DNA of 13,592 nt from an uncultured Leptotrichia sp. (GCA_937925095.1 CALEXX010000013.1:1-13592); one strand, 5' to 3'; counted from the stretch's first letter, positions 466 through 13,592 are shown. Notes: generated by a model not told the origin, from the sequence alone. Translations and numbers: made by a program.

Positions 466-1056
466 CTACTTACCGTTATTTTTATTGTCTTTATTTATTT
501 TTTCCAGTATAGAAGCGAATCCTAAAGTTAGACCATCTATGAACTCTTTATTTTTAGGATTTTCTTCATCAAATTTCCATTCGTTTCCCTCTTTTTTAAA
601 CACAACTTCTACATTTTTTTCAAAATATTTTAAATCTTTTGAATTTAATTTTTCTTCAAAGAATTCTTTTGAAAGGTTTTTAATTTTTGCTTCTGTATCT
701 TCTTCTTTTCCATTTAACGCAGAAAAACTTAATTCCATTGCCTTCTGAAAATATTCAGGGAAATAACTTGCTAATTCAGGAATTTTTAAGTCAACATTCA
801 TAGTTGTAGTATCTCCTTCAACTTTTGCATTTGTAACTTTATAAGTTAATTTTTTATATGCATTTGCAAAAGCTTCAGACATTTCATCGTTAGGATTTGA
901 AAAATTCTTAGTATTAGAAATAATTCCTGTTATATTGGTTGTTTCTCCAGATTGTAACGCATTTAAATCCTTTTCAAGGATTTTCTGTGCTTCAGGTTTA
1001 CCACAACTAACTGTTAACAATAATGTTAACATAATTATAGTTAATATTTTTCTCAT
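466..1056 (-). CDS. Hypothetical lipoprotein (196 aa)
   Basis: N-terminus MRKILTIIMLTLLLTVSCGK is a signal peptide with a lipobox (LTVS-C). An SD-like GGAGTG lies just upstream of the ATG at 1056. It is the last gene of a three-gene minus-strand operon. Confidence 0.7.
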   Translation of the reverse strand: MRKILTIIMLTLLLTVSCGKPEAQKILEKDLNALQSGETTNITGIISNTKNFSNPNDEMSEAFANAYKKLTYKVTNAKVEGDTTTMNVDLKIPELASYFPEYFQKAMELSFSALNGKEEDTEAKIKNLSKEFFEEKLNSKDLKYFEKNVEVVFKKEGNEWKFDEENPKNKEFIDGLTLGFASILEKINKDNKNNGK

Positions 1057-2418: not shown

Positions 2419-2650
2419 TAAAAAATAAGGAAATAAAATAAATTTTATATTTCTGGTCTATTTGTTACCGACAATACAATTTTTGGGCTTTACTCTATTA
2501 TAATGGGGTTATCTCTTTATATGCTGAATCAGGAAAATCACGGCGGTCAAGACTTAGCACGGATTCTGTACATCATTATAAACATGACTACCACCTGTAC
2601 ACTTTTACAGGCTACCAAAAATTAAGTCGAAACGGTAGACCGGATTTTTT
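2419..2650 (+). ncRNA. Candidate small RNA (about 230 nt) running from the orphan promoter to a terminator-like hairpin with a U-tract; identity unknown
   Basis: Predicted TSS about 7 nt after the -10. The 2500-2645 segment is GC-richer than its surroundings. Hairpin CCTGTA-CACTTT-TACAGG (2595-2612) is followed by stem GGCTACC / GGTAG(A)CC and GGATTTTTT (2611-2650). The only ORF is a 34-codon frame at 2521 with poor SD spacing. Confidence 0.25.
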
Positions 2651-2958: not shown

Positions 2959-3621
2959 TTATAGATTTTCACAATTTAATTTATATTTGCCACTTTTGAT
3001 TTTTGTAAGAATTCCCTTGTCACACAGGGAAGAAATTTCTCTCGATAGGGAAGGACGTGTAACTTCAAATTTTTTAGCCAGTTCAGAAATATTAGGCTTA
3101 AATGAAATATATCCATTTTTCTGGTTTTCCTTAATATAGCTGAGGACTTTTTCATTTATTGTTTTATTCATAAAGTTAAACCATATTCTTTTGGAAAGAA
3201 GCTGTCCCTTGTTTGAAATTTCATCCAGAAAATTAACAAGAAGTCTTTCATCCTTCTGCATGGCACTTAGAAAATTATCTTTATTTAAAAATAAAAATTT
3301 TGAATTTTCTGTAGAAATAAGATCTACAGGGAAAGTTCTATTGCTTCCAAAAATAAAAGCGGGAGCAATAAGCTGATACGGAGTAATGTAGTCAATAGTT
3401 ATAGTATCCCCATTAAATTTCTGCATTTCTCCTTTGGAAGTTCCTGACAGGATAATGATAATCTGTTCAAGGGAATCATCTCTAAAGAAAACGGTTTCGC
3501 CTTTTTTGTAGTTCTTAATCTGAAAATTCATGGTTTTCAGAATTTCTTCAATTTCTTCTATATTAAAACCTTTAAACAAAGGTATTCTAGACATTATTTC
3601 ATAAAGTTCCTGAGGTTTCAT
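2959..3621 (-). CDS. Crp/Fnr-family transcriptional regulator (cNMP-binding domain plus C-terminal HTH, 220 aa)
   Basis: N-terminal cNMP-binding-like fold (…PLFKGF…FFRDDSLEQIIIILSG…) and C-terminal HTH ELAKKFEVTRPSLSREISSLCDKGIL, at the length of Crp/Fnr proteins. It is divergent from the asparaginase gene. Confidence 0.85.
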   Translation of the reverse strand: MKPQELYEIMSRIPLFKGFNIEEIEEILKTMNFQIKNYKKGETVFFRDDSLEQIIIILSGTSKGEMQKFNGDTITIDYITPYQLIAPAFIFGSNRTFPVDLISTENSKFLFLNKDNFLSAMQKDERLLVNFLDEISNKGQLLSKRIWFNFMNKTINEKVLSYIKENQKNGYISFKPNISELAKKFEVTRPSLSREISSLCDKGILTKIKSGKYKLNCENL

Positions 3622-3796: not shown

Positions 3797-4879
3797 ATGG
3801 AGGAAATGAAAATGGAGGATGAAAAAGTTCTCATAATAAATACCGGAGGAACAATAAGCATGGTTCATTCAGATAAAAATGATCCTGAAAGTGCCTTAAG
3901 ACCTTCAAAATCATGGAGTGAAGTTGTGAAAAACTATCAGTTTCTGGAAAATCTGAATGTAGGATACGCACAAATAAAGGATGTTATAGATTCTTCAGAT
4001 ATGAATTGTGAAGTATGGAAGGAAATTGCTGAAATAATAGATGAAAATTACTACAAATATAAGGGATTTGTTATTCTGCATGGAACAGATACAATGTCCT
4101 ATACTGCAGGGATGCTGTCCTTTATGCTGAAAAATTTAGGAAAGACGGTTATTCTTACAGGAGCACAGAGACCTATTCAGGAAGTCAGAAGTGACGGACT
4201 TCAGAATCTTTTAACGTCCATTGAAATAATAGAAAGACAGAATAGGATTCCAGCTGGAAAAAGTGAATATGAATTACCTGTAATACCTGAAGTATGTGTT
4301 TTTTTTAGGGACTATCTTTTTAGGGGGAACAGATCCAGAAAGCTTAATACATCAAACTATTTTGGTTTTTCTTCTCCAAATTATTTGTTTCTAGGGGAAG
4401 CCGGATCAAAAATAAAAGTATATGAAGACAGGCTTTTAAAAATGCCAAAACCTGAAGAAAAATTTTATGTGGATTATGAAATAGACACTAATGTTATAAT
4501 TCTTGATATTTTTCCTGGTTTCAATCCGGAAATTCTTCTGAAAATTTTTTCAGGAAATGAAAATATTAAGGGACTTATCCTGAAAACATATGGAAATGGA
4601 AATGCTCCGCAAAACAAGGAATTTTTAAAGGCATTAAAATTTGTAATTGATTCAGGTGTAGTAGTACTCAATGTTACTCAGTGCAATGAAGGAAGTGTGG
4701 AAATGGGAATTTATGAAGCAAGTTCAGAACTTATGAAACTTGGTGTGATAAGTGGATATGACATGACTCCTGAAGCTGCCATTACAAAATTTATGCATAT
4801 TTTAGGAAAATATAATGACGTGGAAATAATAAAAGAAAAGCTGAATGAGAACATTGCAGGGGAAGTTTCTGGAGTGTAA
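3797..4879 (+). CDS. ansA: Type I (cytoplasmic) L-asparaginase
   Basis: N-terminal VLIINTGGTISM matches the asparaginase TGGTIAG threonine active-site motif, and the 355-360 aa length fits type I enzymes. Three in-frame ATGs occur at 3797, 3806 and 3812. Only 3812 has a well-spaced SD (GGAGGA at 3799-3804, 7-nt spacer), so it is the likely true start. Confidence 0.85.
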   Translation: MEEMKMEDEKVLIINTGGTISMVHSDKNDPESALRPSKSWSEVVKNYQFLENLNVGYAQIKDVIDSSDMNCEVWKEIAEIIDENYYKYKGFVILHGTDTMSYTAGMLSFMLKNLGKTVILTGAQRPIQEVRSDGLQNLLTSIEIIERQNRIPAGKSEYELPVIPEVCVFFRDYLFRGNRSRKLNTSNYFGFSSPNYLFLGEAGSKIKVYEDRLLKMPKPEEKFYVDYEIDTNVIILDIFPGFNPEILLKIFSGNENIKGLILKTYGNGNAPQNKEFLKALKFVIDSGVVVLNVTQCNEGSVEMGIYEASSELMKLGVISGYDMTPEAAITKFMHILGKYNDVEIIKEKLNENIAGEVSGV

Positions 4880-5448: not shown

Positions 5449-6963
5449 ATGAATATATTGTTATGGGGAATATTTTATTTAGTAACTGCCATATTTCTTG
5501 GATATTTCTTTTTTAAGGAAAAGGAAGTCATAGATTTTATAAAGGTGAAGGAAGATCTTCTGCTAAATAAAATTTCACTGGAGGAAAATGAAAAAAATTT
5601 AAAGACGGGAAATATCATTACTGTAGCAGGACTGATAGTAACTGTTATTTTCTTTTTTATTTCAGACAGAACGCCTGATGCCAATGTTGGAATAAAAATA
5701 ATAGGTATTTATGCTATGTTTATATTGAATACAGTATTCTTTCTGCTTCGTGCACAGCATGAATGGATATTTATGGGAAATATAGTAATGCTTATACTTG
5801 GCCGTCTGATGTTTAATATAATGGATGTAAAATTTTATATATTTTTAGTAATAAATGCAATATTAGCTTTAGCTCTAATTTTCCTATTTAGACGTCCTAC
5901 CAAAGAGGAAATTACAGAGAGAACTCTTCTGGAGGAAATAAAGGAAGATAAAAAAAATGCCGATAAAAAGATTACGATAGAAAATCTTGAGGAAAAAATA
6001 GACATTGAAAAGAAACGTAGAAGCAGTTTTGGAAAAGCTCTTCACAGGGTTGACATGTCGGTAATGGCAGTAGTGCTTGTACTTCTTATACAGACTTTCT
6101 ATATTGGGAATTATGTAATTCCTACAGGATCAATGGAAGAAACAATAAAGATAAAAGACAGAGTTTTTGCAAATATGGTAAAATACAAATTTACATCTCC
6201 AAAGGTAAATGATATTGTGGCATTTAAAGAACCTATGACAAATAAGCTTATGTTCACAAAAAGATTGGTAGGAGTGGCGGGTCAGACTTTACAGATTAAA
6301 GATATACAGGCAATGGATTTAACAGACCCTTCAACAGTGGATAACGCAGGAAATGTCAGAGTTTCAAATGTTGATGCAGGAAATATTTATTTAGATGATA
6401 AAAAAGCAGAAAAATTGAACAGACCTTACACTAAAGATGGTTTTTTATTAGACAGTAAGATATATATTCCTAAAAAAGGTGATAAAGTAAAAATTGATAA
6501 AATAGTTATAATTCCTAAAGGAAAAGCAAGAATAGAAGGAACAGATAACTTTATTACAGGAACTGACTGGTCAGGATATGGAGATGGAAGTTACAAATTT
6601 TTAACTCCGGAGGAATTTTTAGCTAGAATAGGTACAGATAAAGGGTTTAAGGATATAGTAGGAAACGAAGACCGTTATGAGGAAGGTAATCCAAAATACG
6701 ATGTATACTATACATTCTTTCTTAAAGTGGAAGGAAGAGATGAACTGGTACTTCCTATAATGGACTTTAAATATGATGATGCCCTGTTCCTGAAACTGTT
6801 AAAGGGAGAAAGTTTGACTCTTAATAAGAACTATTATATCGCTATGGGAGATAACACTACAAACAGTCTTGATTCAAGGTTTTTCGGATATGTTGCAGAA
6901 GATAGAATAAAAGGAAAGTTGCTGTTAAGATGGTGGCCGTTAAACAGATTGGGATTAATATAA
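5449..6963 (+). CDS. lepB: Signal peptidase I (LepB family) with an unusual N-terminal extension of about 190 aa and five transmembrane helices (504 aa)
   Basis: Box B VIPTGSME (catalytic Ser), box D TKRLVGVAGQ (catalytic Lys) and box E GDNTTNSLDSRFFGYV are all present. Five predicted TM helices and a charged linker precede the canonical membrane anchor MAVVLVLLIQTF. The upstream 200 codons carry no in-frame stop despite AT-rich DNA. Confidence 0.8.
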   Translation: MNILLWGIFYLVTAIFLGYFFFKEKEVIDFIKVKEDLLLNKISLEENEKNLKTGNIITVAGLIVTVIFFFISDRTPDANVGIKIIGIYAMFILNTVFFLLRAQHEWIFMGNIVMLILGRLMFNIMDVKFYIFLVINAILALALIFLFRRPTKEEITERTLLEEIKEDKKNADKKITIENLEEKIDIEKKRRSSFGKALHRVDMSVMAVVLVLLIQTFYIGNYVIPTGSMEETIKIKDRVFANMVKYKFTSPKVNDIVAFKEPMTNKLMFTKRLVGVAGQTLQIKDIQAMDLTDPSTVDNAGNVRVSNVDAGNIYLDDKKAEKLNRPYTKDGFLLDSKIYIPKKGDKVKIDKIVIIPKGKARIEGTDNFITGTDWSGYGDGSYKFLTPEEFLARIGTDKGFKDIVGNEDRYEEGNPKYDVYYTFFLKVEGRDELVLPIMDFKYDDALFLKLLKGESLTLNKNYYIAMGDNTTNSLDSRFFGYVAEDRIKGKLLLRWWPLNRLGLI

Positions 6964-7409
6964 TAAAAATTGAAGCAGGAAATGTATCCCCTGAAACAGC
7001 TGAAAAACTTACAGAAATTCATAATGAAAATTTTGAAGAAAAGAAAAATGAAAGTTATTTTTTAGAAATTTTGAATAATGAACTGTACAGCGTTTACTGC
7101 CTATCTGCAGAAAAAATTCCGGAAATATCAGGATATGCAGTATTTTACGATACATTTGACAGTATTGACCTCTTTGAGATAGCCATATTGAAGGAAAAAC
7201 AGGGAAAAGGATATGGCAATACATTACTGAGTTATACATCTGATATTTTTTGCAGAAACGGAAAGAAAATATTGCTGGAAGTTAATGAAAACAATGAAAA
7301 AGCGATAAAACTGTATAAAAAGAATGGTTTTGAAGAAATATCGGTAAGAAAAAATTATTATGGAAATAATCAGAATGCAGTAATTATGATGAAAAATGAA
7401 GATATATAA
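6930..7409 (+). CDS. rimI: GNAT-family N-acetyltransferase, RimI-like (ribosomal-protein-alanine acetyltransferase)
   Basis: GNAT core motifs (…LFEIAILKEKQGKGYGNTLL…LEVNENNEKAIKLYKKNGFEE…RKNYY) at the length of RimI (159 aa). The ATG at 6930 overlaps the end of lepB by 34 nt. Confidence 0.7.
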   Translation: MVAVKQIGINIIKIEAGNVSPETAEKLTEIHNENFEEKKNESYFLEILNNELYSVYCLSAEKIPEISGYAVFYDTFDSIDLFEIAILKEKQGKGYGNTLLSYTSDIFCRNGKKILLEVNENNEKAIKLYKKNGFEEISVRKNYYGNNQNAVIMMKNEDI

Positions 7410-10196: not shown

Positions 10197-10219
10197 ACTG
10201 GCTGGTAAATTTATTAATC

Positions 10220-10248
10220 TTTAAAAAAAGCAAAAAATGTAGTATAAT
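10220..10248 (+). promoter_or_regulatory. Putative promoter of the nfeD-SPFH operon (TTTAAA-17-TATAAT)
   Basis: TTTAAA at 10220-10225, a 17-nt spacer and TATAAT at 10243-10248. It has the same architecture as the asparaginase promoter. Confidence 0.4.
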
Positions 10249-10335
10249 ATAAGAAAGAAATTTTATACATAACATATTAAATGTATGAAATAAAAAAACT
10301 TACGAATGGATTAATTTCCGGGAGGGAGAACTTTA

Positions 10336-10758
10336 ATGGGAGCTATGTTTTGGGCAATTGCTACGGCAGTATTTGCAATACTTGAAATTGTGATACCTGG
10401 TCTTGTTACAATATGGCTGGCTCTTGCCGCTCTAATTGTGACGGTATTTGCAGGATTTATAAATAATCCTACTGTGGAATTTGTTATTTTTGCGGTATTT
10501 TCATTGATTTTTGTAATATTTACAAGACCTGTTTTGAGAAGATACATTCAAAAGGCAGACAAAAAATTCAGTCCTCAAATGAAAGGTTCTGAAATAAAAA
10601 TCGAAAAAGTTGTAAATACTGACAAACAGAAAAAGGAATATGAAGTAAAATTTAAAGGTTCCATATGGACAGGAACTAGTGATGAATTTTTTAAGGTAGG
10701 AGATATTGTCAAAATTAAAAATTTTGAAGGAAATAAAATTATACTTGAAAGAAAATAG
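10336..10758 (+). CDS. NfeD-like membrane protein (short form, C-terminal OB-fold), partner of an SPFH protein
   Basis: Two N-terminal TM helices plus a C-terminal beta-rich domain (…GSIWTGTSDEFFKVGDIVKIKNFEGNKIILE) typical of the NfeD/YuaF family. SD GGGAGGGAG upstream. It lies immediately 5' of a band-7 gene, the canonical nfeD-SPFH pair. Confidence 0.8.
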   Translation: MGAMFWAIATAVFAILEIVIPGLVTIWLALAALIVTVFAGFINNPTVEFVIFAVFSLIFVIFTRPVLRRYIQKADKKFSPQMKGSEIKIEKVVNTDKQKKEYEVKFKGSIWTGTSDEFFKVGDIVKIKNFEGNKIILERK

Positions 10759-11838: not shown

Positions 11839-12606
11839 ATGAGAAAAGTAATCGTAGCGGGAAACTGGAAAATGAACAAAACTGCAAAAGAGGCAGCAGA
11901 ATTTTTTGCAGAATTTAAACCTTTAGTTGCAGATGTTAAAAATGCAGGGATTGTTATAGGGGTACCGTTTACAGCTTTAGAGACAGCAACAAGAGAAACA
12001 GCAGGATCAAATATTAAAATAGCTGCTGAAAACATGAATGCAAATGACAGTGGGGCTTATACAGGAGAAGTTTCTCCATTAATGTTAAAAGATTTAGGTG
12101 TTGAATATGTTATTTTAGGACACTCAGAAAGAAGAGAATACTATGGGGAAACGGATGCCATAGTTAATGAAAAAGTAAAAGCGGCACTTAAACACGGATT
12201 AAAACCAATTTTATGCGTTGGAGAAAAATTGGAAGAAAGAGAAAATGGAACTACTGAAAAAGTAGTTGAAGAACAAGTAGTAGGTGGATTGAAAGATGTA
12301 TCTGCTGAAGAAATGGCAAATGTAGTAATAGCTTATGAACCTGTATGGGCAATAGGAACAGGTAAAACTGCAACTCCAGAACAGGCTCAGGAAGTTCATG
12401 CATTTATAAGAGGATTACTTGGAAAACTTTACAGTGCTGAAGTTGCTGAAAATGTAACAGTTCAGTACGGTGGATCAATGAATGATGCCAATGCGGCTGA
12501 GCTTATCGCTCAAAAAGATATAGATGGTGGATTAGTTGGAGGAGCAAGCTTAATTCCTGAAAAATTCACTGTAATAGTAAAAGCGGGAGATTCTGCAGTT
12601 AAGTAG
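11839..12606 (+). CDS. tpiA: Triosephosphate isomerase
   Basis: N-terminal VIVAGNWKMNKT, the active-site region AYEPVWAIGTGKTAT, a length of 255 aa and SD GGAGGAAG. Confidence 0.95.
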   Translation: MRKVIVAGNWKMNKTAKEAAEFFAEFKPLVADVKNAGIVIGVPFTALETATRETAGSNIKIAAENMNANDSGAYTGEVSPLMLKDLGVEYVILGHSERREYYGETDAIVNEKVKAALKHGLKPILCVGEKLEERENGTTEKVVEEQVVGGLKDVSAEEMANVVIAYEPVWAIGTGKTATPEQAQEVHAFIRGLLGKLYSAEVAENVTVQYGGSMNDANAAELIAQKDIDGGLVGGASLIPEKFTVIVKAGDSAVK

Positions 12607-12643: not shown

Positions 12644-12847
12644 ATGTTAGAAAATTTACTGGTAATAATTTTAGTAGTTTTAGCTATAATTATGATAGCT
12701 GTTATCCTGTTACAGCCTGACAGAAGTCAGGGACTGGCTAAAAATGCCAATATAGTAGACGAGGAAAAAGAAGGAATTGAAAAGTTTACTGAATGGATAG
12801 CAACAGCATTTCTAGTTGTGGCGATACTGTTTCAGATAATAAGATAA
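12644..12847 (+). CDS. secG: Preprotein translocase subunit SecG
   Basis: 67-aa two-TM protein with the conserved SecG N-terminus (…IIMIAVILLQPDRSQGL…) and SD AGGAGGA. It lies directly downstream of tpiA, as in several phyla. Confidence 0.75.
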   Translation: MLENLLVIILVVLAIIMIAVILLQPDRSQGLAKNANIVDEEKEGIEKFTEWIATAFLVVAILFQIIR

Positions 12848-12881
12848 AAACTATTATAAATTAAATTCATGGAGGTAAAGT

Positions 12882-13097
12882 ATGAAAATGAAAGAACTAG
12901 AAAAAGATGAATTATTAAGAGTTGATGGAGGTCGTGGATTACGTGAATTTATAAGGGAAATTTCAGGTGGAGCAGTTTATGATGAAAGAGATAGATTAAG
13001 AGAGAGAGTTAAAGAGTTAGAAAGAAGAATTAGAGTAGATGACAGAGAAATTCATGAAAGAGACAGAGGGAAATCTGGATTACGTAGAGCAAGATAA
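12882..13097 (+). CDS. Small secreted-peptide precursor candidate (71 aa): double-glycine-type leader followed by a highly charged Arg/Glu/Asp-rich 54-aa core
   Basis: Strong SD GGAGGT (12872-12877) with a 5-nt spacer to the ATG at 12882. Residues 1-17, MKMKELEKDELLRVDGG, fit the GG-leader consensus: hydrophobic at -4, -7, -12 and -15, Glu at -8, Gly-Gly at -2/-1 (codons 12927-12932). The core has about 18 Arg/Lys and 13 Asp/Glu and very few hydrophobic residues. A clean terminator follows. The coding strand is strongly purine-rich. Confidence 0.5.
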   Translation: MKMKELEKDELLRVDGGRGLREFIREISGGAVYDERDRLRERVKELERRIRVDDREIHERDRGKSGLRRAR

Positions 13098-13109
13098 GAT
13101 GGAGAATGT

Positions 13110-13153
13110 ACTGCACCAAAATTTTAGATATAAAATTAAAGGTGCAGTTTTTC
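13110..13153 (+). terminator. Rho-independent terminator after the small peptide gene
   Basis: 8-bp stem ACTGCACC (13110-13117) / GGTGCAGT (13141-13148) with an AT-rich 23-nt loop, followed by TTTTTCT. Confidence 0.55.
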
Positions 13154-13219
13154 TATGAAATTGATTAGGAAGATAAAATCAAAATAAATGAAAAGGATTG
13201 AAAGGTAAAATTTAAAATT

Positions 13220-13592
13220 ATGAGAAGATATAAAAATGTATATTTATTTTTCAATTTATTTAGTATAGAGGTATTGCTGTTCATTATCTTCTTTTATAAT
13301 AGAAAAATGGATATGGTATATGTAAATGACGAATTTGTTTCCTATCTGTTTGAGGGAATTTATTTATCTCTAACTATATTTATTACGGAGGAAATGATTT
13401 TTAGGGAAGGATTTTTTATTATTCTAAAAAATAAAATGAAATATTACAATGTAATACAGGCAATTCTGTTTTCGATTTTTCACTTGAATTTTATTTATTT
13501 CTATGCAATAAAAAATATTTTTCTGAGTATTTTATACAGTTTTATTACAGGAATGATATATGGAAATATCAGGAAAAATTCTAAAAATGTAG
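13220..13592 (+). CDS. CPBP-family (CAAX protease / bacteriocin self-immunity, Abi-like) intramembrane metalloprotease, 5' part; continues beyond the window end
   Basis: Manually translated from the ATG at 13220 (in-frame TGA at 13199-13201 just upstream). No stop occurs through 13592, which is why it is missing from the ORF track. It encodes hydrophobic helices plus motif 1 EEMIFR (EExxxR) and motif 2 FSIFH (FxxxH) at the spacing typical of CPBP/Abi proteins. Motif 3 (HxxxN/D) is not resolved in the window. Confidence 0.55.
   Translation, partial: MRRYKNVYLFFNLFSIEVLLFIIFFYNRKMDMVYVNDEFVSYLFEGIYLSLTIFITEEMIFREGFFIILKNKMKYYNVIQAILFSIFHLNFIYFYAIKNIFLSILYSFITGMIYGNIRKNSKNV

What the first reader, a model, noticed from the sequence alone, without database searches (positions are those of the whole stretch)
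12882..13097. Orphan double-glycine-leader peptide gene with an Arg/Glu-rich core, wedged behind tpiA-secG
The first 17 residues (MKMKELEKDELLRVDGG) reproduce the spacing of the double-glycine leader used by class II bacteriocins, competence pheromones and some RiPPs: hydrophobic residues at -4, -7, -12 and -15, Glu at -8, GG at -2/-1. GG leaders are cleaved by C39-peptidase ABC exporters. The 54-aa core is unlike typical Gly-rich, hydrophobic bacteriocins. It has about 18 Arg/Lys and 13 Asp/Glu, few hydrophobic residues and a net positive charge, and a predicted single charged helix (ER/K-like) with a second internal GG. The gene has an excellent SD and its own terminator. It sits only 34 nt after secG with no intervening terminator, so it may ride on the housekeeping tpiA-secG transcript or use a weak TTCAGA-18-TATAAA promoter at 12831-12860. 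No exporter or modification gene lies within the window. This may be an undescribed leader/core family.
Basis: partly seen in the sequence, partly recalled or inferred. Interest (0 to 1): 0.8.

Follow-up and report, generated by a model that had tools for sequence, protein, structure and literature searches.

The report
Charged secreted-peptide gene in Leptotrichia island
The 71-codon gene is real and encodes an export-leader peptide, but it is not an orphan: it is the first gene of an accessory island in an oral Leptotrichia, and closely related DNA shows the matching exporter and probable self-protection genes just past the window's end, so it is a new and unusually charged member of the well-known bacteriocin/microcin type of secreted peptides.

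Summary
ORF 12882-13097 encodes MKMKELEKDELLRVDGG followed by a 54-aa core (16 R, 2 K, 13 D/E, net +5, GRAVY -1.5). It has a GGAGG ribosome-binding site and its own hairpin terminator. It is not an orphan. In near-identical or syntenic contigs the block continues with a second CPBP, a C39-peptidase ABC exporter (passes TIGR01193) and an HlyD-type adaptor, then addBA. Many related genomes have an empty site, where secG, its terminator and addB are adjacent. The block is therefore an accessory island, and its insertion removed secG's own terminator. The peptide belongs to a small family of 14 clusters, found only in metagenome assemblies (several labelled human oral), with no curated model and no remote homologues. 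Between lineages the leader DNA is invariant and the exporter is 98-99% identical. The peptide core (61%) and its two CPBP neighbours (71-79%) diverge together. The most likely reading is a class II microcin/bacteriocin-like double-glycine peptide with a cognate CPBP immunity pair. Antibacterial activity is inferred, not shown. I file it as a new member of a known kind with an atypical hyper-charged core. Interest is moderate.

The parts
11839..12606 (+). tpiA (triosephosphate isomerase), the upstream housekeeping gene of the likely shared transcript
   Evidence: PF00121, E 2.9e-99
12644..12847 (+). secG. In this genome its native terminator is missing.
   Evidence: PF03840 and TIGR00810 above cutoff. 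Island-free relatives have a -29.8 kcal/mol hairpin plus U-run directly after secG.
12851..13592 (+). Left end of the accessory island (peptide/CPBP cassettes, exporter, adaptor). It runs off the window.
   Evidence: Homology to empty-site genomes (L111-L120, including CP012410.1) stops at window 12850. All cassette copies align from about 12845.
12871..12875 (+). Shine-Dalgarno GGAGG, 6 nt before the ATG, invariant in all cassette copies
12882..12932 (+). Double-glycine leader MKMKELEKDELLRVDGG. Predicted cleavage is after G17.
   Evidence: Consensus positions -15, -12, -8, -7, -4, -2 and -1 are met. There are no nucleotide substitutions against the L001 pep68 leader, while the core has diverged. 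Leader HMM E 0.0017.
12933..13097 (+). 54-aa hyper-charged core (RGLREF...GKSGLRRAR) plus stop. It carries the conserved C-terminal motif RVD(D/E)RE(I/V)H..DRGKSG.RR.R.
12999..13008 (+). (AG)5 tract inside the core. An (AG)4 allele elsewhere truncates the peptide to 42 aa.
   Evidence: P0004
13110..13155 (+). Intrinsic terminator or attenuator: ACTGCACC...GGTGCAGT followed by TTTTTCT
   Evidence: dG -21.6, z -6.2. Other peptide subtypes have non-homologous hairpins with U-runs at the same place.
13220..13592 (+). CPBP_a, a CPBP/Rce1-like (Abi) intramembrane protease homologue. It is cut by the window end (187 aa in L013). It is the putative immunity or processing partner.
   Evidence: PF02517, E 9.5e-9. 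EExxxR and FxxxH motifs are present; HxxxN/D is absent in the full-length L013 copy. TM-like segments are present.

Best explanation
The gene encodes the precursor of an unmodified double-glycine (GG) peptide. It is the first gene of a 5-8 kb accessory island inserted between secG and addB in an oral Leptotrichia lineage. The island consists of one or more cassettes, each with a GG peptide and two CPBP membrane proteins, followed by a C39-peptidase ABC exporter (PCAT) and an HlyD-type adaptor. The island insertion replaced secG's own terminator. This copy also lacks the TTTACA-17-TATAAT promoter that internal cassette copies carry. It is therefore most likely transcribed by read-through from tpiA-secG and stopped by its own hairpin, which also limits transcription into the CPBP genes. 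After translation from a strong SD, the amphipathic leader docks in the C39 domain and is cut after G17. The 54-aa, 6.6 kDa, net +5 core is then pumped out through the PCAT, the adaptor and an outer-membrane channel. The secreted peptide most likely acts as a narrow-spectrum antagonist of related Leptotrichia, in the manner of a class II microcin or bacteriocin. The adjacent CPBP_a/CPBP_b pair most likely gives cognate self-protection. Shown here: the gene anatomy, the family, the leader conservation, the island and its empty site, the exporter genes in relatives, and the joint divergence of peptide and CPBPs. Inferred: cleavage, export, antibacterial activity, the immunity role of the CPBPs, and the presence of a full exporter on the very molecule the window came from.
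For: The ORF, SD and terminator are real. The next gene is a CPBP. L013, 99.4% identical and colinear, shows pep71, CPBP187, CPBP195, a 113-aa C39 relic and the start of the next cassette. L100, L101 and L104 carry the same cassette at 97.1% nt, followed directly by a 721-aa PCAT, a 373-aa adaptor and addBA. L098 has the simplest form, with secG, peptide, two CPBPs and the PCAT. The PCAT passes TIGR01193 (645.6 against a cutoff of 523.85) and has the C39 Cys, His and Asp motifs. The adaptor's best hits are type_I_hlyD and bacteriocin_acc. The empty site, secG then terminator then addB, occurs in L111-L120, including the complete genome CP012410.1. Leader DNA has 0 substitutions while the core has dN 0.41 and dS 0.56. 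Between L013 and L001, Band7 is 99.3%, TIM 99.6%, SecG 97.0% and the ABC N-terminus 97.8% identical, but the peptide is 61%, CPBP_a 71% and CPBP_b 79%. Where the peptide type is the same (L098 against L013), the CPBPs are 98% and 94% identical. Other Leptotrichia PCAT loci carry cargo with the same type of leader. The literature frame is that class II microcins have a GG signal, a PCAT, an MFP, TolC and adjacent small membrane immunity proteins, sometimes two (PMC12219008), and that CAAX/Abi proteins are implicated in bacteriocin self-immunity (PMC8692603, citing Kjos 2010).
Against: No exporter is seen on the window itself, so its presence is inferred from relatives. Curated GG-leader models score below threshold: PF10439 11.6 bits against 27.1, and TIGR03949 13 bits against 21.5. 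The core is hydrophilic and lacks the Gly-rich or hydrophobic segment typical of membrane-active class II peptides. Core dN/dS is about 0.7-1, or above 1 for pep62 orthologues, on few sites. This fits diversifying selection but also relaxed constraint. Some alleles are decayed: a 42-aa frameshift, pep75, and a frameshifted PCAT in L005 and L006. No TolC-like gene lies in the island. No activity, secretion or expression data exist. CPBP_a lacks the third catalytic motif.
Confidence: 0.7

Rival explanations
1. The peptide is exported by the PCAT but is not a toxin. It would be a signalling, adhesion, colonisation or host-directed factor, as described for some streptococcal GG peptides (CSP, BriC, VP1). 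The CPBPs would then act in its processing or sensing rather than in immunity.
For: The core is very hydrophilic, with 57% charged residues and no membrane-active segment. GG peptides have several non-bactericidal roles (PMC7595303). Allelic peptide/partner co-variation also fits pherotype-receptor pairs. The C-terminal motif is conserved across subtypes.
Against: No histidine kinase, response regulator or Rgg-type regulator lies in the island or its flanks in the 20-kb loci. Each cassette has its own membrane-protein pair. Cassettes are multiplied and exchanged, and peptides decay while CPBPs stay intact. This is the pattern of toxin-immunity loci such as the pneumococcal blp region. Bacteriocin export is the commonest PCAT function (PMC7018657).
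Confidence: 0.2
2. The gene is a decaying or non-exported remnant. The GG-leader resemblance has no present function in this strain, for example because the exporter is disrupted or absent, so the peptide stays cytoplasmic or is not made.
For: This copy lacks the strong cassette promoter. Core dN/dS is near 1. Frameshifted peptide and PCAT alleles exist in relatives. The exporter is not seen on the window.
Against: The ORF is intact here, with an invariant SD and leader. The identical peptide occurs on 12 contigs from different samples. Indels among paralogues are in-frame. A strong terminator follows the gene. The PCAT is intact in most related contigs.
Confidence: 0.07
3. It is a RiPP precursor whose core is post-translationally modified before export.
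For: GG leaders are also used by some RiPP classes (general knowledge). The CPBPs are enzymes by family.
Against: Complete islands (L001, L100) have no radical-SAM, YcaO, LanM/LanB/LanC, methyltransferase or other tailoring gene. They contain only peptides, CPBPs, the PCAT and the adaptor. The window-type core (pep71) has no Cys or Thr and only two Ser.
Confidence: 0.03

Closest known systems
Class II microcins of Gram-negative bacteria (MccV/ColV type; CvaAB-TolC export)
   Same: [quoted passage not shown] Export genes are a PCAT and a membrane-fusion/HlyD-type adaptor in a diderm host. Small membrane proteins are encoded next to the peptide as candidate immunity, and two are sometimes required (PMC12219008).
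   Different: The host phylum is Fusobacteriota, and I found no report of a microcin in this genus. The core is 57% charged with GRAVY -1.5 and has no Gly-rich or hydrophobic segment. The candidate immunity genes are a pair of CPBP protease homologues. There is no sequence homology to any known microcin. Activity is untested.
Gram-positive class II bacteriocin loci with Abi/CPBP immunity genes (plantaricin and sakacin loci; pneumococcal blp 'bacteriocin-immunity region')
   Same: GG peptides lie beside CPBP/Abi membrane proteins. A variable cassette region sits next to a conserved PCAT and accessory protein. Cassette content differs between strains, and exporter genes are sometimes frameshifted (PMC8692603; Kjos 2010 and blpA frameshifts from my own knowledge).
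   Different: No quorum-sensing two-component system lies in the island. Each cassette has two short CPBPs (152-198 aa). The host is diderm. The core chemistry is different.
Other Leptotrichia PCAT cargo (L. trevisanii AP019831.1 locus L105; metagenomic loci L107 and L109)
   Same: The leader type is the same, MK[IM]xEL...E...I[ND]GG. The core begins with an Arg-rich segment. The PCAT is 71-74% identical, an HlyD-type adaptor follows, and CPBP genes are nearby.
   Different: Those cores are 88-100 aa and two of the three (L105, L109) carry a Gly-rich, hydrophobic (glycine-zipper-like) segment; L107 has a shorter hydrophobic stretch. The window's family has none. The CPBPs there are 288-298 aa and not arranged as a short pair. 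There is no detectable core homology.
Bactofencin A (a highly cationic class IId bacteriocin of Lactobacillus salivarius)
   Same: It is a precedent for a strongly basic bacteriocin whose immunity comes from an unusual membrane protein, not a classical small immunity protein (PMC3809560: title and abstract start listed, paper not read further; its sequence features and DltB-like immunity are from my own knowledge).
   Different: It is 22 aa, has a disulfide and few acidic residues. Its immunity is DltB-like, not CPBP. It is unrelated in sequence.
Pneumococcal rtg-locus GG peptides (RtgAB cargo)
   Same: They are GG peptides of unknown function, exported by a dedicated PCAT, variable in number between strains, and suspected to be bacteriocins because of adjacent immunity-like genes (PMC7018657).
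   Different: They are regulated by Rgg/SHP, the host is Gram-positive, and the sequences are unrelated.

Membership tests
Double-glycine (GG) leader peptides exported by PCATs | An N-terminal 15-30 aa leader ending in GG (or GA/GS), with hydrophobic residues at -4, -7, -12 and -15 and an acidic residue at -8 | tested here: met
   MKMKELEKDELLRVDGG fits at every position. The regex is rare, at 2 of 8801 ORFs. An independent Leptotrichia leader HMM gives E 0.0017. The leader is conserved in all 14 family clusters.
Double-glycine (GG) leader peptides exported by PCATs | A cognate ABC exporter with a catalytically competent N-terminal C39 peptidase domain in the same locus | tested here: met
   It is not in the window. 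It is present directly downstream in L098, L001-L006 and L100-L104. It passes TIGR01193, and the Cys (DCGPAC), His (HYIVIH) and Asp (SDPA) motifs are present. Its presence in the window's own molecule is inferred.
Double-glycine (GG) leader peptides exported by PCATs | Actual cleavage after GG and secretion | not testable with these tools
   Needs mass spectrometry or a secretion assay.
Pfam PF10439 Bacteriocin_IIc / NCBIfam TIGR03949 (curated GG-leader bacteriocin models) | A score at or above the curated gathering threshold | tested here: not met
   PF10439 scores 11.6 bits against 27.1, E 0.29. TIGR03949 scores 13 bits against 21.5, E 0.065. Only the leader aligns.
Class II microcin system | A membrane-fusion (HlyD-type) adaptor encoded next to the PCAT | tested here: met
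   A 373-aa protein with BSH_RND and Beta-barrel_AprE domains. Its best NCBIfam hits are type_I_hlyD and bacteriocin_acc, both below their cutoffs. Seen in relatives only.
Class II microcin system | An outer-membrane channel (TolC-like) | not testable with these tools
   None is in the island. The rest of the genome was not available.
Class II microcin system | An adjacent small inner-membrane immunity protein that protects the producer | tested here: inconclusive
   Two membrane CPBP homologues of 187 and 191-195 aa follow the peptide, and they co-vary with the peptide type. A protective function was not tested.
Class II microcin system | Antibacterial activity of the mature peptide | not testable with these tools
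CPBP / Abi (Rce1-like, PF02517) intramembrane proteases | A Pfam hit above threshold and the three motifs EExxxR, FxxxH and HxxxN/D | tested here: met
   The window's CPBP_a scores 35.9 bits against 22.4 and has motifs 1 and 2. Full-length CPBP_a lacks motif 3. CPBP_b has all three.
GG-type peptide pheromone systems (CSP/ComCDE, BlpC/BlpHR) | A cognate histidine kinase and response regulator encoded with the peptide and exporter | tested here: not met
   No such genes are in the island or within about 10 kb of flank in L001 and L100. The nearest regulator is a MarR-family gene beyond addA, and it is also present at empty sites.
RiPP precursor | A tailoring enzyme gene in the cluster | tested here: not met
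   Complete islands contain only peptides, CPBPs, the PCAT and the adaptor.
ER/K single alpha-helix | A long, stable, isolated helix with alternating E and R/K, conserved in the family | tested here: inconclusive
   AlphaFold2 predicts a helix at residues 18-57, but mean pLDDT is 57. There are 8 opposite-charge i/i+4 pairs. The ER-rich stretch is missing from the 57-64 aa paralogues.

The most novel reading that the evidence does not exclude
These peptides would define a distinct class of PCAT cargo. They are fully hydrophilic, Arg/Glu-rich and carry a conserved C-terminal RVDEREIH..DRGKSGLRR.R module. They could not act by inserting into membranes. They would instead be taken up to hit a periplasmic or cytoplasmic target, or act on the host or as a signal. 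Producers would be protected by a dedicated heteromeric pair of CPBP proteases, one catalytically complete and one lacking motif 3, which recognise or cleave the cognate peptide. That would give a soluble, tractable substrate for the long-unresolved mechanism of Abi/CPBP bacteriocin immunity.
Probability: 0.25. Interest if true: 0.65.

Novelty: new member of a known kind. Interest (0 to 1): 0.4.

Why it matters
I found no described bacteriocin- or microcin-type system in Leptotrichia, a common member of the human oral flora. This island is a strain-variable competition or communication locus with natural island-free relatives, so the test panel already exists. The peptide core lies outside the usual chemistry of class II peptides. 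Its tight co-variation with a pair of CPBP proteins makes it a candidate model for how Abi/CPBP proteins confer peptide-specific protection. The case also shows that 'orphan' small-peptide calls near a contig end should be checked against syntenic contigs, because repeated cassettes break metagenome assemblies exactly at such loci.

Tried and rejected
- **Genome scan with the peptide profile:** the scan of 185,579 species genomes matched 600 leader-like stretches and none was confirmed.
- **Genome scan with ValRS:** The best hit was an uncultured Leptotrichia at 85%, and that locus (L020) lacks the tpiA-secG-island arrangement. It is about 90% nt identical to CP012410.1.
- **AlphaFold2 of the precursor:** mean pLDDT was 57, too low for a fold search, so I ran none.
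- **PDB profile search:** nothing below E 1.
- **Pfam and NCBIfam on the paralogues:** no family.
- **Rfam on the window:** only 6S RNA, and nothing near the peptide.
- **Kjos et al. 2010:** the paper on Abi immunity is not held, so I cite it only through PMC8692603 and my own knowledge.
- **Literature searches:** searches for Leptotrichia bacteriocins or microcins and for hydrophilic Arg-rich GG peptides found no description of this family.
- **Internal GG (residues 29-30) as a second cleavage site:** rejected because it is not conserved.
not rejected, but considered weak. The TATAAA lies in the invariant 5' UTR of all copies, downstream of the much better TTTACA-17-TATAAT of internal copies.
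- **C-terminal sorting signal processed by MrtJ/MrtS-type CPBPs:** rejected. Those hits are sub-threshold, and the peptides have no C-terminal transmembrane helix.

Full report
**What is in the window**

The ORF at 12882-13097 (+) exists as described and translates to MKMKELEKDELLRVDGGRGLREFIREISGGAVYDERDRLRERVKELERRIRVDDREIHERDRGKSGLRRAR. Counting back from G17, the leader has M-15, L-12, E-8, L-7, V-4, G-2 and G-1. The 54-aa core has 16 Arg, 2 Lys, 5 Asp and 8 Glu. That gives net +5, GRAVY -1.5, 6633 Da and pI about 11.

GGAGG lies at 12871-12875, 6 nt before the ATG. The gene starts 34 nt after the secG stop (12845-12847). A hairpin at 13110-13148 (ACTGCACC...GGTGCAGT) is followed by TTTTTCT and folds at -21.6 kcal/mol, z = -6.2.

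The upstream genes are tpiA and secG by Pfam and NCBIfam. The rest of the window is housekeeping: ValRS, NfeD, a Band 7 protein, L19, a 504-aa S26 peptidase, a GNAT, asparaginase, a Crp-like regulator, a nitroreductase, DUF1275 and a 6S RNA.

An ORF starting at 13220 and cut by the window end is a CPBP/Rce1-like (Abi) intramembrane protease homologue. It hits PF02517 at E 9.5e-9 and has the EEMIFRE and FSIFH motifs.

**Is the leader more than chance?**

Curated GG-leader profiles match only below threshold. PF10439 gives 11.6 bits against a cutoff of 27.1, and TIGR03949 gives 13 bits against 21.5. Three other tests are stronger.

- A regex for the classical consensus, placed at the N-terminus, hit only 2 of 8801 mechanical ORFs in about 1.4 Mb of unrelated loci plus the window. 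One of the two was this ORF.
- An HMM built only from the leaders of three exporter-linked peptides of other Leptotrichia loci picked this ORF as the sole significant hit among 12441 ORFs. Its E-value was 0.0017, and the next best was 3.6.
- Every homologue keeps the frame, the leader and the GG.

**The family**

Two searches of 5.8 billion proteins and one exhaustive HMMER search of 1.84 billion representatives found only a small family of 14 clusters. All come from metagenome assemblies, several of them labelled human oral. None carries a name or a Pfam domain. There are no remote homologues and no PDB relative.

There are three subtypes.

- **68-71 aa:** the window's type, with an ER-rich insert.
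- **57-62 aa:** of the form ...GRGFFD...WEYRGSGRVDEREIHEKDRGKSGLRRTRP.
- **63-64 aa:** of the form ...REIHDYSGAS.GRSDRDYTPSPDTPEGRRRTATRP.

Shared features are the leader, an RG.R..F start to the core and a basic C-terminal module. AlphaFold2 predicts a helix at residues 18-57, but mean pLDDT is only 57. The ER-rich stretch is absent from the shorter paralogues. The 'single charged helix' therefore remains a weak idea.

**Context: not an orphan**

Contigs carrying the same or related peptides are syntenic with the window (S26 peptidase, GNAT, ValRS, NfeD, Band 7, tpiA, secG) and continue past the point where the window stops.

- **L013** is colinear with the window at 99.4% nt. It shows secG, pep71, CPBP_a (187 aa), CPBP_b (195 aa from the ATG at 3910; 191 aa from the called start at 3922), a 113-aa N-terminal relic of a C39-ABC gene, and then the first 30 nt of another cassette.
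- **L014 and L015** show CPBP_b, the C39 relic, an identical pep71 and CPBP_a. The cassette is therefore tandemly repeated, which probably explains why assemblies, and this window, break here.
- **L100, L101 and L104** carry the same cassette at 97.1% nt. It is followed directly by an intact 721-aa C39-ABC exporter, a 373-aa HlyD-type adaptor, addB and addA.
- **L098** has the minimal form: secG, peptide, CPBP_a, CPBP_b and the exporter.

The exporter passes NCBIfam TIGR01193, 'peptide cleavage/export ABC transporter', at 645.6 bits against a cutoff of 523.85. It has the C39 Cys, His and Asp motifs. The adaptor's best matches are type_I_hlyD and bacteriocin_acc, both below their cutoffs.

**An accessory island that took away secG's terminator**

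A look-up of the window's exact SecG protein found many contigs where secG is followed after about 200 nt by addB. One of them is the complete genome CP012410.1. From memory only, this is Leptotrichia sp. oral taxon 212. The taxon exists, but I did not verify the link to the accession.

Homology between the window and these empty sites ends at 12850, 3 nt after the secG stop. On the far side it resumes 67 nt before the addB start codon. The 127 nt that the island replaced include a strong hairpin with a U-run directly after secG, at -29.8 kcal/mol and z = -8.

Internal cassette copies carry a near-consensus TTTACA-17-T(G)GTATAAT promoter about 37 nt upstream of the ATG. In the window's copy, and in other secG-proximal copies, the 3' end of secG occupies that position instead. 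So this copy has lost both secG's terminator upstream and the cassette promoter. Read-through from tpiA-secG, ending at the peptide's own hairpin, is the most economical reading, though it is an inference.

Each peptide subtype has a different, non-homologous hairpin with a U-run after its stop codon. This argues that termination or attenuation at that place is functional.

**Evidence that the peptide and the CPBP pair are functionally coupled**

The table compares the window's lineage (L013) with L001, plus the longer exporter comparison from L098.

| Protein | Amino-acid identity, L013 vs L001 |
|---|---|
| Band 7 | 99.3% |
| TIM | 99.6% |
| SecG | 97.0% |
| Exporter N-terminus (93 aa) | 97.8% |
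| Exporter, 678 aa (L098 vs L001) | 98.8% |
| Peptide | 61% |
| CPBP_a | 71% |
| CPBP_b | 79% |

Where the peptide type is the same (L098 against L013), CPBP_a is 98% and CPBP_b 94% identical.

The 51 nt coding the leader show no substitution between the window and L001. The core has dN 0.41 and dS 0.56. Other pairs give dN/dS of about 1 or higher.

Cassette similarity is also decoupled from the backbone. Against L100 the cassette is 97% identical and the flanks 90%. Against L001 the cassette is 77% and the flanks 94%.

Cassette content differs between strains, and decayed alleles occur.

- An (AG)5 to (AG)4 slip truncates the peptide to 42 aa.
- A pep64 variant has lost its leader.
- The exporter carries a 5-nt deletion in two samples.

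Taken together, this is a conserved exporter beside a hypervariable, exchangeable peptide-plus-membrane-protein module, with occasional loss of the toxin or the exporter while the membrane proteins are kept. That is the population signature of bacteriocin-immunity loci. No kinase, response regulator or tailoring enzyme lies in the island.

CPBP_b has all three CPBP motifs, while CPBP_a lacks the third. Both have TM-like segments.

**Comparison with what is known**

In function and architecture the locus matches the class II microcin paradigm: a GG signal, a PCAT, a membrane-fusion protein, an outer-membrane channel, and adjacent small membrane immunity proteins, of which two are sometimes needed (PMC12219008). 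It also matches Gram-positive class II loci in which Abi/CAAX proteins are implicated in self-immunity (PMC8692603). PCAT cargo of unknown function is commonly presumed to be bacteriocin on the same grounds (PMC7018657). However, GG peptides can also be signals or colonisation factors (PMC7595303).

Other Leptotrichia species have PCATs 71-74% identical, with cargo bearing the same leader type. One is L. trevisanii; the source name for Leptotrichia sp. oral taxon 847 comes, and I did not inspect that locus. In the three loci inspected, two cores (L105, L109) combine an Arg-rich start with a Gly-rich hydrophobic tail. The window's family has no hydrophobic part at all.

Searches of the held literature found no report of a Leptotrichia bacteriocin or microcin, or of this peptide family.

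**Verdict**

The GG-leader interpretation is supported. 'Orphan' is an artefact of the window's end.

I rate as very likely that this is PCAT cargo in a strain-variable island. A cognate toxin-immunity function is the most likely role, but it is unproven. The whole statement gets a confidence of 0.7, and the antibacterial part alone about 0.5.

It is a new member of a known kind, with an atypical, fully hydrophilic core. Interest is moderate at 0.4. It would rise if the peptide acts by a non-membrane mechanism or proves to be a direct substrate of its CPBP pair.

Noticed in passing
window 2447-2650 (+): 6S/SsrS RNA gene, Rfam RF00013, 48.4 bits against a gathering score of 46.4. It lies between the nitroreductase and the Crp-like gene.
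   Followed up: no
window 12999-13008; L098 about 3530-3545 (-): An (AG)5 tract lies inside the peptide core. L098 and cluster P0004 carry (AG)4, which frameshifts the gene to a 42-aa product while the CPBPs and exporter stay intact. This could be slipped-strand on/off switching, decay or an assembly error.
   Followed up: partly
L013 4625-4966; L014 1148-1489; L001 9420-9741; L100 7833-8174: Relics of the exporter's C39 N-terminus (83-113 aa) sit between cassettes. They match the full gene up to FPIIAHIKTEKNFL and then diverge. They are scars of tandem cassette duplication with one breakpoint inside the ABC gene.
   Followed up: partly
L005 11576-13736; L006 2084-4244: The full exporter gene is split into 67 aa and 658 aa by a 5-nt deletion (GATTTGATGGGAAAGCAG becomes GATTTGAAAGCAG). 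The same variant is found in the C39 relic of L001, which suggests recombination or gene conversion from the relic into the functional copy. It resembles exporter-negative 'cheater' genotypes.
   Followed up: partly
L116 (CP012410.1) 10205-10403, against window 12848 onwards: This is the empty site of the island. secG is followed by a -29.8 kcal/mol terminator and the addB promoter region. The island replaced 127 nt, including that terminator. No integrase or flanking repeat was seen, so the mode of insertion is unknown.
   Followed up: yes
window 12845-13592 against L100 8348-9098 and L001 9964-10672: The cassette is 97% identical to L100 while the flanking backbone is 90%. Against L001 the reverse holds, with the cassette at 77% and the backbone at 94%. 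Cassettes appear to be exchanged between lineages.
   Followed up: partly
L001 7425-8097; L100 5414-6496: Cassette A carries two or three peptide genes of different subtypes (57-62 aa plus 63-64 aa) ahead of a single CPBP pair. This may be a two-peptide arrangement. In L100 the 64-aa type is replaced by a 75-aa ORF that has lost the leader.
   Followed up: no
L105 7310-7865 (L. trevisanii AP019831.1); L107 6290-7057; L109 6687-7040: Other Leptotrichia PCAT loci encode 105-117 aa GG-leader peptides. Two of the three (L105, L109) have a Gly-rich, glycine-zipper-like segment after an Arg-rich N-terminal core. L105 and L107 also encode small TM proteins of 59-66 aa that are probably immunity proteins. 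These too appear undescribed.
   Followed up: partly
window 5449-6963 (+) and 6930-7409 (+): The S26 signal-peptidase homologue is unusually long at 504 aa, with two matched S26 stretches. Its 3' end overlaps the start of a GNAT acetyltransferase gene by 34 nt.
   Followed up: no
window 466-1056 (-): A 195-aa ORF with no Pfam family at E <= 0.001.
   Followed up: no
window 13083-13094: The mature peptide would end in ...LRRAR-COOH, an R-x-x-R C-terminus of the 'C-end rule' type. That is my own recollection and was not tested. Paralogues end in RRTRP, RRSRS or RRMR, so a terminal Arg is not conserved. It is probably incidental.
   Followed up: no
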